A DNA stretch of 64,000 nucleotides from Eledone cirrhosa (Eukaryota): contig OZ024742.1 in the NCBI GenBank assembly GCA_964016885.1, positions 65,782,001-65,846,000 on the forward strand. Reading direction: 5' to 3'. Below are positions 6,601-9,238 of this stretch, piece by piece. Position 1 is the stretch's first letter. Every line of letters starts with the position of its first letter. A program made the position numbers and the translations under genes. The notes beneath the pieces were generated by a model that saw nothing but the letters and a program-made list of their open reading frames with translations, did not search any database and had not been told where the DNA came from.

Positions 6601-7143
6601 TCTACGCGTTTCATTCTTGTTAGAAATCATCAGGACTACATATCCAGTGCTTTTATCGAGAATGACACAGCTAGAGACTTATAGAATACTTAGCTGTGTA
6701 CAGGAACTGGTTTGAAAGAGCGGTTGCCGGTCCGGCAGAAATTAGAAATTGGAATAAATGCTCTGAAATAGCGATATATATGTGAATATAGACATAGAAT
6801 ATTCGAAAATATTCTGTATGTTTATAATAAACATTTTGAAGACCTAATCGCTATAGAATAGAATACGTCACGTATTACAATTAGATTCTCGATAAAAGCA
6901 AGGGAAGTAATCTACGCGTTTCATTCTTGTTAGAAATCATCAGGACTACATATCCAGTGCTTTTATCGAGAATGACACAGCTAGAGACTTATAGAATACT
7001 TAGCTGTGTACAGGAACTGGTTTGAAAGAGCGGTTGCCGGTCCGGCAGAAATTAGAAATTGGAATAAATGCTCTGAAATAGCGATATATATGTGAATATA
7101 GACATAGAATATTCGAAAATATTCTGTATGTTTATAATAAACA
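3643..7143 (-). repeat. Tandem array of 310-bp hammerhead-containing units, left arm (11 full units plus partial)
   Basis: Unit starts TAGAAATTGG at 3643+310n up to 7053; units identical by eye except position 3662; HHR on the minus strand of each unit (first at 3785-3873). Confidence 0.97.
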
Positions 7144-9238
7144 GTTCCTGTACACAGCTAAGTATTCTATAAGTCTCTAGCTGTGTCATTCTCGATAAAA
7201 GCACTGGATATGTAGTCCTGATGATTTCTAACAAGAATGAAACGCGTAGATTACTTCCCTTGCTTTTATCGAGAATCTAATTGTAATACGTGACGTATTC
7301 TATTCTATAGCGATTAGGTCTTCAAAATGTTTATTATAAACATACAGAATATTTTCGAATATTCTATGTCTATATTCACATATATATCGCTATTTCAGAG
7401 CATTTATTCCAATTTCTAATTTCTGCCGGACCGGCAACCGCTCTTTCAAACCAGTTCCTGTACACAGCTAAGTATTCTATAAGTCTCTAGCTGTGTCATT
7501 CTCGATAAAAGCACTGGATATGTAGTCCTGATGATTTCTAACAAGAATGAAACGCGTAGATTACTTCCCTTGCTTTTATCGAGAATCTAATTGTAATACG
7601 TGACGTATTCTATTCTATAGCGATTAGGTCTTCAAAATGTTTATTATAAACATACAGAATATTTTCGAATATTCTATGTCTATATTCACATATATATCGC
7701 TATTTCAGAGCATTTATTCCAATTTCTAATTTCTGCCGGACCGGCAACCGCTCTTTCAAACCAGTTCCTGTACACAGCTAAGTATTCTATAAGTCTCTAG
7801 CTGTGTCATTCTCGATAAAAGCACTGGATATGTAGTCCTGATGATTTCTAACAAGAATGAAACGCGTAGATTACTTCCCTTGCTTTTATCGAGAATCTAA
7901 TTGTAATACGTGACGTATTCTATTCTATAGCGATTAGGTCTTCAAAATGTTTATTATAAACATACAGAATATTTTCGAATATTCTATGTCTATATTCACA
8001 TATATATCGCTATTTCAGAGCATTTATTCCAATTTCTAATTTCTGCCGGACCGGCAACCGCTCTTTCAAACCAGTTCCTGTACACAGCTAAGTATTCTAT
8101 AAGTCTCTAGCTGTGTCATTCTCGATAAAAGCACTGGATATGTAGTCCTGATGATTTCTAACAAGAATGAAACGCGTAGATTACTTCCCTTGCTTTTATC
8201 GAGAATCTAATTGTAATACGTGACGTATTCTATTCTATAGCGATTAGGTCTTCAAAATGTTTATTATAAACATACAGAATATTTTCGAATATTCTATGTC
8301 TATATTCACATATATATCGCTATTTCAGAGCATTTATTCCAATTTCTAATTTCTGCCGGACCGGCAACCGCTCTTTCAAACCAGTTCCTGTACACAGCTA
8401 AGTATTCTATAAGTCTCTAGCTGTGTCATTCTCGATAAAAGCACTGGATATGTAGTCCTGATGATTTCTAACAAGAATGAAACGCGTAGATTACTTCCCT
8501 TGCTTTTATCGAGAATCTAATTGTAATACGTGACGTATTCTATTCTATAGCGATTAGGTCTTCAAAATGTTTATTATAAACATACAGAATATTTTCGAAT
8601 ATTCTATGTCTATATTCACATATATATCGCTATTTCAGAGCATTTATTCCAATTTCTAATTTCTGCCGGACCGGCAACCGCTCTTTCAAACCAGTTCCTG
8701 TACACAGCTAAGTATTCTATAAGTCTCTAGCTGTGTCATTCTCTATAAAAGCACTGGATATGTAGTCCTGATGATTTCTAACAAGAATGAAACGCGTAGA
8801 TTACTTCCCTTGCTTTTATCGAGAATCTAATTGTAATACGTGACGTATTCTATTCTATAGCGATTAGGTCTTCAAAATGTTTATTATAAACATACAGAAT
8901 ATTTTCGAATATTCTATGTCTATATTCACATATATATCGCTATTTCAGAGCATTTATTCCAATTTCTAATTTCTGCCGGACCGGCAACCGCTCTTTCAAA
9001 CCAGTTCCTGTACACAGCTAAGTATTCTATAAGTCTCTAGCTGTGTCATTCTCGATAAAAGCACTGGATATGTAGTCCTGATGATTTCTAACAAGAATGA
9101 AACGCGTAGATTACTTCCCTTGCTTTTATCGAGAATCTAATTGTAATACGTGACGTATTCTATTCTATAGCGATTAGGTCTTCAAAATGTTTATTATAAA
9201 CATACAGAATATTTTCGAATATTCTATGTCTATATTCA
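7142..9238 (+). repeat. Inverted arm of the same 310-bp array (6 full units plus ~0.76 unit)
   Basis: Reverse complement of the left-arm unit; CAGTTCCTG at 7142+310n to 9002; one SNP at 8744; ends in (TA)n. Confidence 0.97.
7188..7276 (+). ncRNA. Type I hammerhead ribozyme (representative of 18 copies: 7 on +, 11 on -)
   Basis: Stem I GTAGTC(7212-17)/GATTAC(7249-54); core CTGATGA (7218-24); stem II TTCT-aaca-AGAA; GAAA (7239-42); palindromic CGCG; TA cleavage dinucleotide (7247-48); distal 16-bp helix ATTCTCGATAAAAGCA/TGCTTTTATCGAGAAT beyond an internal loop. Confidence 0.9.

What the first reader, a model, noticed from the sequence alone, without database searches (positions are those of the whole stretch)
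7053..7260. Array inversion and 40-nt tail copy the inverted-pLTR signature of Penelope insertions, pointing to the mobilising enzyme
Seen: orientation switches at 7142-7143 through a CA microhomology (AATAAACA|GTTCC versus unit TTCAAACCAGTTCC), so ribozyme-sense strands point outward. The right arm stops at 9238 just before the unit's internal (TA) run and merges with genomic (TA)n, while the left arm extends 40 nt further (3643-3682). The coding Neptune-like copies here (357-2770, 24383-27077) show the same pattern: outward-facing inverted pLTRs, one ending at an internal TA run, the other with a 30-40 nt tail. Known: Drosophila Penelope has inverted pLTR forms with an optional short tail. 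Inference: the array was written by PLE RT/GIY-YIG at a (TA)n target in trans, direct structural evidence for PLE mobilisation of a retrozyme, with both arms able to run for many laps of a circular template.
Basis: partly seen in the sequence, partly recalled or inferred. Interest (0 to 1): 0.82.

Follow-up and report, generated by a model that had tools for sequence, protein, structure and literature searches.

The report
Ribozyme repeats inserted by Penelope enzymes
A 310-base repeat that carries a hammerhead-ribozyme motif but no gene sits at over a thousand places in this animal genome, mostly as two back-to-back arrays with one end about 35-40 bases longer than the other, the same mark its Penelope-type jumping genes leave, so it is likely copied in by a borrowed Penelope enzyme that likely starts twice on one RNA.

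Summary
Observation confirmed and generalised. The array is a 310-bp ORF-less unit with a minimal type I hammerhead, inverted at 7142-7143, arms pointing outward into (TA)n; one arm stops at the internal AT run, the other 40 nt later. The genome holds about 1,250 such short ends. All 96 inverted insertions with both ends resolved had one short end and one tail end, never two alike; the modal tail is 35 nt. Both arms carried the same haplotype in 88 of 90 testable insertions (about 20 by random pairing). Neither arm is systematically longer, which rejects fold-back; clean junctions are microhomology-rich. Two coding PLE families here obey the same rule. Best reading: a PLE RT/GIY-YIG dimer primes both strands of a cut (TA)n at two start sites on one retrozyme RNA. 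Circles are likely needed (private variants fixed over up to 24 laps), but some templates look linear and the longest arms grew afterwards. The mobilising family is not identified: the window's PLEs share no sequence with the unit. PLE mobilisation of retrozymes was already proposed; this end signature was not in the papers I saw. The scan noted a similar ribozyme-free case in another genome.

The parts
3643..7143 (-). left (tail) arm, 11.3 units of the 310-bp retrozyme, 5' end at unit position u187, 3' end at u277
3643..3682 (-). 40-nt tail (u238-u277): sequence between the two inferred reverse-transcription start sites
   Evidence: tail = stretch between two RT starts in PMC11167929
7142..7143 (.). 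inversion junction, 2-nt CA microhomology joining u187 (left) to u1 (right); both positions are mild hot spots
7142..9238 (+). right (short) arm, 6.8 units, 5' end at u1, 3' end at u237 just before the internal AT run
7212..7254 (+). minimal type I hammerhead motif of the first right-arm unit (helix I GTAGTC/GATTAC, core CTGATGA and GAAA, palindromic ACGCGT helix III, predicted cut after 7248); one per unit, 18 in the array
   Evidence: Rfam HH9 19.2 bits, E 0.054, below gathering score 52; two copies cofold through helix III
3595..3642 (.). left (TA)n target remnant
9239..9384 (.). right (TA)n target remnant
357..2770 (-). 5'-truncated coding PLE copy 1: decayed RT/GIY-YIG (2365-1090), inverted pLTRs 357-717 and 2374-2732, tail to about 2770, hammerhead variant at 2497
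24384..27077 (+). 5'-truncated coding PLE copy 2 (Neptune-like): ORF piece 24830-25648 with GIY-YIG, inverted pLTRs 24414-24689 and 26802-27077, tail 24384-24413 plus AT run, hammerhead variant at 26926

Best explanation
The array is one insertion of a gene-less hammerhead repeat (a non-LTR retrozyme) with two outward-pointing arms in a (TA)n run, likely written in trans by a Penelope-like RT/GIY-YIG protein that likely primes both cut DNA strands from two start sites 35-40 nt apart on one RNA template. Steps: (1) inferred: the protein cuts both strands of (TA)n; (2) inferred: one subunit starts at the unit's internal AU run (short end), the other 35-40 nt downstream (tail end); shown: every resolved inverted insertion has one end of each kind; (3) shown: both arms carry one haplotype over many laps; inferred: they were copied from one molecule, usually a monomer circle read round and round, sometimes a linear multimer; (4) shown: the two 5' ends are joined at dispersed positions with excess microhomology or short inserts; inferred: the two cDNA 3' ends anneal and each is the template for the other's second strand, which gives the inversion; (5) shown for the longest arrays: later local duplication adds units.
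For: 59 of 59 inverted insertions short+tail; held-out set picked on the short end alone: 38 inverted pairs from 41 short ends, 36 tail at u272-279, 1 at u266, 1 off the fetched region, 0 short/short. 114 of 121 ends run into TA. Same haplotype in both arms 52 of 53 (random pairing 11.2, max 23 in 5,000) and 36 of 37 (8.4, max 18). Tail arm longer in 31 of 59 (p 0.79) and about 20 of 37, arm lengths uncorrelated, 5' phases uniform overall. Microhomology of 2 nt or more in 16 of 25 clean joins, 4.5 expected, p 5e-7. 20 variants private to one insertion and fixed over 4-24 laps of both arms, in 17 of 95 insertions (3 of the 20 also occur in shorter arrays). A young Neptune-like family with open 784-aa RT+GIY-YIG frames, 97.6-100% identical over 23 copies, gives short+tail in 15 of 15 resolved inverted copies; a Hydra-like family in 7 of 7. 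No PLE ORF is joined to a unit arm in 108 fetched sequences. In vitro, a PLE protein cuts and extends both strands, starts at two internal sites that bound the tail, and is predicted to be a dimer (PMC11167929). Short-read contigs of run X2 show TA ends at 7387 and 7418 and one other inversion joint.
Against: No autonomous partner with a matching pLTR was found. In vitro the start site did not differ between top and bottom strand, so the strict pairing is not yet explained biochemically. 3 of 95 insertions (L084, L098, L229) have lap-specific variants in register on both arms, and L074 has arms of two haplotypes for four laps: linear multimers or template switches occur. 5 of 209 other arms begin exactly at u1, as the window's right arm does (0.7 expected), which could be a transcript 5' end. 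The 45-unit arm has a 27-unit repeat of variants. 12 + 3 arms had no partner arm. One chimeric coding locus (L126) has two short ends from two families. Ribozyme activity, transcription and circles were not tested; the Rfam score is below threshold. Same-haplotype arms could also come from one source locus dominating a cell.
Confidence: 0.72

Rival explanations
1. PLE-written, twin-primed, but the template is normally an uncut linear multimer read through from an existing genomic array; no circle is needed.
For: In-register lap-specific variants in L084, L098, L229 (both arms switch haplotype after lap 2); excess of 5' ends at u1; ribozyme cleavage is not required for PLE insertion in vitro.
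Against: Only 3 insertions show mirrored variants against 67 unmirrored differences over 271 shared laps; private variants fixed across up to 24 laps need a monomer to be re-read at some step; 5'-truncating copies of linear arrays can only shrink.
Confidence: 0.2
2. Short PLE-type insertions of one or two units that grew into arrays later by unequal crossing over (the model in bioRxiv 2026.07.22.740005).
For: Periodic variants in the longest arrays (27-unit and 7-unit repeats); older relatives B and C have mostly 1-2 units per arm.
Against: 41 of 59 insertions have two or more units on both arms at about 0.04% divergence; 81 singletons against 16 partly shared variants, most of these in the longest arrays; growth would have to be fast, on both arms, and then stop.
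Confidence: 0.1
3. One cDNA folds back on itself and the endonuclease resolves the hairpin, which leaves the tail (self-priming and EN-resolution ideas in PMC3846280 and PMC8557442).
For: Short templated inserts at many junctions; L074 fits a fold-back of one arm over two laps.
Against: Predicts that one end type always marks the longer arm (seen 31 of 59), close 5' phases (11 of 61 within 25 nt, 10 expected) and mirrored RT errors (3 insertions against 67 differences).
Confidence: 0.06
4. Fold-back read or assembly artefact.
For: The exact window junction was not seen in the four runs laid.
Against: Arms differ in length and end, each has its own unique flank, 96 other-site examples follow one rule, and short-read contigs of another study show the same ends and an inversion joint.
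Confidence: 0.02

Closest known systems
Animal non-LTR retrozymes (Cervera & de la Pena 2020, PMC7229834; Li, Clavereau & Pollet, bioRxiv 10.64898/2026.07.22.740005)
   Same: 150-450-bp ORF-less tandem unit, one type I hammerhead per unit, low GC, self-paired fold, PLE mobilisation proposed.
   Different: Those papers describe head-to-tail arrays and argue from co-occurrence and pLTR phylogeny; the words inverted/inversion/tail/orientation do not occur for these arrays in their main texts. Here arrays are two-armed, inverted, with fixed PLE-type ends.
EN+ Penelope-like elements, inverted pLTR form with 30-40-bp tail (Gladyshev & Arkhipova 2013, PMC3846280; Craig et al. 2021, PMC8557442)
   Same: Outward-facing inverted ends, tail on one end, (TA)n target, hammerhead upstream of the end, 5' truncation.
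   Different: No ORF; each arm is many laps of one unit; the tail is described as optional or often at one end, here it is on exactly one arm in 96 of 96.
Anolis Poseidon PAc in vitro reaction (Frangieh et al. 2024, PMC11167929)
   Same: Two internal RT start sites bounding the tail, both strands of AT-rich DNA cut and extended, predicted dimer.
   Different: Autonomous RNA, no strand-specific start choice seen, inversion and second-strand steps left open.
MRC1 and other non-autonomous Chlamys PLEs (PMC8557442)
   Same: ORF-less, multicopy head-to-tail insertions with pLTR-like ends.
   Different: Green algae, no canonical hammerhead in most Chlamys, 3' similarity to an autonomous family is known there and missing here.
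L1 twin priming (recalled, not read)
   Same: Inversion made by priming from both target strands and joining by microhomology.
   Different: In L1 the second primer anneals at a variable internal site; here both starts are fixed and both arms copy the same sequence.

Membership tests
non-LTR retrozyme | tandem repeat of 150-450 bp without ORF, LTR, PBS or PPT | tested here: met
   310-bp unit, no ORF of 150 aa or more in the array; PBS/PPT not searched separately
non-LTR retrozyme | type I hammerhead in each unit | tested here: met
   all core nucleotides, helices I and II and a palindromic helix III in each of 18 units; Rfam HH9 E 0.054, under the gathering score
non-LTR retrozyme | strongly self-paired monomer | tested here: met
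   circular MFE -67.8 kcal/mol against -47.5 +/- 4.0 for 100 dinucleotide shuffles, z -5.1
non-LTR retrozyme | self-cleavage and accumulation as circular RNA | not testable with these tools
   no run on record as RNA was listed; a 340-nt closed unitig in X1 and X3 fits a tandem or a circle alike
non-autonomous EN+ PLE | inverted ends with 30-40-nt tail on one end | tested here: met
   96 of 96 resolved inverted insertions
non-autonomous EN+ PLE | (TA)n target as in Neptune, Naiad, Hydra | tested here: met
   114 of 121 ends
non-autonomous EN+ PLE | sequence shared with the pLTR of an autonomous family | tested here: inconclusive
   none with the window's two families; only 26 of 28 nt of hammerhead with a Hydra-like family; most of 23,744 PLE candidates were not examined
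autonomous PLE (unit = pLTR in cis) | RT/GIY-YIG ORF joined upstream of the unit | tested here: not met
   no ORF joined to an arm in 68 + 40 sequences; one PLE lies across a 200-N gap from an arm but has its own pLTR
Neptune clade (window copy 2 and its family) | RT plus C-terminal GIY-YIG with CX2-5CxxC linker and CCHH | tested here: met
   Pfam RVT_1 and GIY-YIG; CDRPNCGIC and CxxC..H..H visible in the protein; motif definitions from PMC8557442; no tree built
Hydra clade (family E ORF) | RWK-like, DKT, CxCX5C linker, CxxC and CxH | tested here: met
   RWR, DKT, CNCLNKEAC, CDLC, CMH in L293/L294 against section 11 of PMC8557442; Pfam GIY-YIG only E 0.022; no tree built

The most novel reading that the evidence does not exclude
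Every inverted PLE insertion, coding or not, is made by a dimer that takes both start sites of one RNA, one per DNA strand, and the two cDNAs meet and copy each other; retrozyme circles exploit this so that two RTs chase each other round one 310-nt ring. That would explain in one model the inversion, the one-sided tail, second-strand synthesis and multi-unit retrozyme arrays.
Probability: 0.45. Interest if true: 0.88.

Novelty: new variant of a known kind. Interest (0 to 1): 0.7.

Why it matters
Two questions stand open in the papers read: which enzyme moves animal retrozymes, and how PLEs make inverted copies with a tail on one side. A young family with over a thousand near-identical insertions gives a count-based answer: retrozyme arrays carry the PLE footprint, the tail is obligatory on exactly one arm, and both arms come from one template variant. 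It also shows that most of the array length can be laid down at insertion. A 310-nt RNA, a (TA)n target and natural intact ORFs in the same genome make the model directly testable with the published in vitro PLE assay.

Tried and rejected
DNA search of the own genome with the unit gave nothing because its words are too common; patterns worked. The reverse count of the tail pattern (2,644) is inflated by several matches per site, so only the forward count (785) is used. Rfam at gathering score: nothing in the window or around the captured 272-bp insert. Search for the autonomous parent by walking to relatives B and C, by a three-copy nhmmer profile over 1.1 Mb of fetched DNA and through the hammerhead-sharing family E: no parent found. 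HHR-cut linear monomers as templates: rejected, 3 arms begin at u106-110 against 3.4 expected and singleton indels do not cluster there. Sequencing runs: no RNA holder listed, no evidence either way; raw Hi-C run X21 had 0 reads on the unit, no test; the exact junction was not bridged by a listed piece. Junction microhomology could not be measured in 15 of 59 insertions (anchor variants), and 19 of the other 44 had inserts or nearby mismatches. No target-site duplication can be read in (TA)n. Earlier-findings look-ups by place and by sequence were empty. Lunse et al. 2017, Arkhipova 2006, Evgen'ev & Arkhipova 2005 and Pyatkov 2004 were not read; the supplement of PMC7229834 could not be read and bioRxiv supplements are closed; they may show inverted retrozyme arrays.

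Full report
1. The locus. The window (G000:C3:65782001-65846000, a 3.0-Gb animal assembly) holds a 310-bp unit as a minus-oriented arm 3643-7143 (11.3 units) and a plus-oriented arm 7142-9238 (6.8 units). I number the unit from 7142 (u1). The arms share CA at 7142-7143, differ from the unit at two internal bases, and both run into (TA)n. The right arm ends at u237, just before the unit's own AT run; the left ends at u277. Each unit has a minimal type I hammerhead (u71-113) on the outward-reading strand; Rfam gives HH9 at 19.2 bits, E 0.054, under its gathering score. The circular monomer folds 5 SD below shuffles. The two coding copies have inverted pLTRs with a one-sided tail as described, and both pLTRs carry a hammerhead-like motif with T and A at core positions 3 and 8 (that this pair can replace C3-G8 is recalled).

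2. The family. A 38-nt hammerhead stretch matches 4,200 times exactly (variants are missed). The short-end pattern matches 1,253 times, the tail pattern 785 times on the forward strand. I fetched 72 regions of C1 (12 chosen on the hammerhead, the rest on one or both end patterns) and added the window: 61 inverted pairs and 12 unpaired arms. After dropping one duplicate beside a gap (L059) and merging a double inversion (L043), 59 of 59 insertions had one short and one tail end. Because about 25 of these were chosen with both ends known, I took 40 further regions on the short end alone: 41 short ends gave 38 inverted pairs (36 tails at u272-279, one at u266, one off the region), 3 single arms and no short/short pair. 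The coordinate lists show no outward like-with-like pair that did not resolve into two insertions. Tails end at u272 in 62 of 95 cases (35 nt) and at u277 in 9. 114 of 121 ends run into TA. All 97 inversions have 3' ends outward.

3. Junctions and arms. 5' phases are uniform overall (KS p 0.43), with mild peaks at u1 and u186 (5 of 209 each, 0.7 expected); the window joins these two peaks, and the same junction recurs once in an unrelated insertion with another haplotype. Of 44 measurable junctions 25 are clean, and 16 of them overlap by 2 nt or more (4.5 expected, p 5e-7); 19 have inserts or nearby mismatches. The tail arm is the longer in 31 of 59 and about 20 of 37; 94 of 118 arms have two or more units, 12 have ten or more. 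Both arms share the five-site haplotype in 52 of 53 and 36 of 37 testable insertions, against 11.2 and 8.4 by random pairing. In 95 insertions, 20 variants were private and fixed over 4-24 laps of both arms (3 of them recur in shorter arrays), while 67 differences were on one arm only and 3 insertions had lap-specific variants in register on both arms; in L229 both arms change haplotype after lap 2. The 45-unit arm repeats its variants at 27 units, so it grew after insertion or is misassembled.

4. The enzyme. No PLE ORF is joined to a unit arm in 108 sequences; one PLE lies across a 200-N gap but ends in its own pLTR. Window copy 2 belongs to a young family with many open 784-aa RT+GIY-YIG frames (142 scored of 23,744 candidates; Pfam; 97.6-100% identity over 23 copies) and a Neptune-type linker. 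Its inverted copies are short+tail in 15 of 15 resolved cases, tail about 40 nt; L126, a join of this family with family E, is short+short. It shares no sequence with the unit. Family E (8,362 matches) is the pLTR of a Hydra-like ORF, is short+tail in 7 of 7 pairs with a tail of about 70 nt, and shares 26 of 28 nt of hammerhead core and stem II with the unit, nothing more. Older relatives B and C share the unit's start region but have other hammerheads and mostly 1-2 units per arm. So the class of enzyme is well indicated, the family is not.

5. Independent data. Run X2 (short-read contigs, another study) has TA ends at 7387 and 7418 and one strand-switch joint 7130 to 7336; X1 and X3 hold one closed 340-nt unitig identical to the unit; X21 had no reads; no listed piece bridges the window's own junction.

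6. Mechanism. Shown: geometry, end rule, haplotype sharing, microhomology excess, absence of a linked ORF. From the literature: a PLE protein cuts and extends both strands of AT-rich DNA, starts at two internal sites that bound the tail, does not need ribozyme cleavage, and is predicted to dimerise (PMC11167929). Inferred: each DNA end takes one of the two starts on one RNA; the cDNAs run for several laps; their 3' ends anneal and fill each other in. Fold-back fails on arm-length symmetry. A circle is the simplest way to fix private variants over many laps; linear multimers explain the mirrored cases and the u1 peak.

7. Literature seen. bioRxiv 2026.07.22.740005: parts 1-3 of 5 (all of the main text) and a term search: retrozymes derive from pLTRs by phylogeny and co-occurrence, arrays by later amplification, no mention of inversion or tail. 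PMC11167929: parts 1-2 of 4. Passages only: PMC3846280, PMC8557442 (also section 11), PMC7229834, PMC4209133, PMC7761336, PMC8969392. PMC4209133 already proposes rolling-circle reverse transcription for PLE tandems and notes pairs of motifs on opposite strands 100-700 bp apart. Searches for retrozyme+Penelope, pLTR+inverted+tail, non-LTR retrozyme+inverted, Penelope+twin priming, retrozyme+rolling circle and MRC1 showed no paper reporting inverted, tailed retrozyme arrays or a strict one-short-one-tail rule; subscription papers and two supplements were out of reach.

8. Verdict. Real, general in this genome, and a new line of evidence for an idea already in print, with an unexpected strict rule that bears on the PLE mechanism itself. 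New variant of a known kind; interest 0.7.

Noticed in passing
window 10906-11100 (-); L065:9370-9725; L064:966-1273; L097:3810-4350: Older relatives of the unit (families B and C, 73-85% identical in matched parts) keep the start region and the inverted, tailed layout but carry different hammerheads, as if the ribozyme module had been swapped.
   Followed up: partly
L293:972-2762, L294:3701-5978: Abundant Hydra-like PLE (family E, 8,362 hammerhead matches) with a tail of about 70 nt, twice the published 30-40 nt; its ORF frame begins inside the pLTR and tail.
   Followed up: partly
L036:3099-3370: A 272-bp piece of a repeat clustered on contig C25 (96-98% identical, 39 scored copies within 5 Mb) is captured between the two arms of one insertion; no Rfam match around it.
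   Followed up: partly
L126:127-2780: A Neptune-like coding arm is joined directly to a family E arm, both with short ends: a hybrid insertion or a later deletion.
   Followed up: no
L170-L171; L167-L169: Full-length Neptune-like unit of about 4.7 kb with a 455-aa frame upstream of the 784-aa RT frame; elsewhere five 3.9-kb copies in tandem separated by TA runs.
   Followed up: no
window 7100-7451 in public runs: The unit's words stand in contigs labelled with 17 organisms, yet a Hi-C run of one of them had no read on it and two laid runs hold a single invariant 340-nt unitig at depth 10-12; carry-over between libraries is more likely than horizontal spread, untested.
   Followed up: partly
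L043:2643-2820: One insertion has a triple switch of orientation that repeats the same 5-nt microhomology junction.
   Followed up: no
window 54633-58068 (+): Non-LTR (LINE-type) reverse transcriptase frames of 359 and 622 aa, unrelated to the array.
   Followed up: no
window 30280-30780 (+): GIY-YIG fragment with a CxCX5C-type linker, probably another Hydra-like PLE remnant.
   Followed up: no
window 9385-9600, 10659-10850, 27250-27460: Short TA-flanked elements with the same hammerhead variant as the Neptune-like pLTR (about 77% identical to it); many more hammerhead families sit in TA runs of the fetched loci.
   Followed up: no
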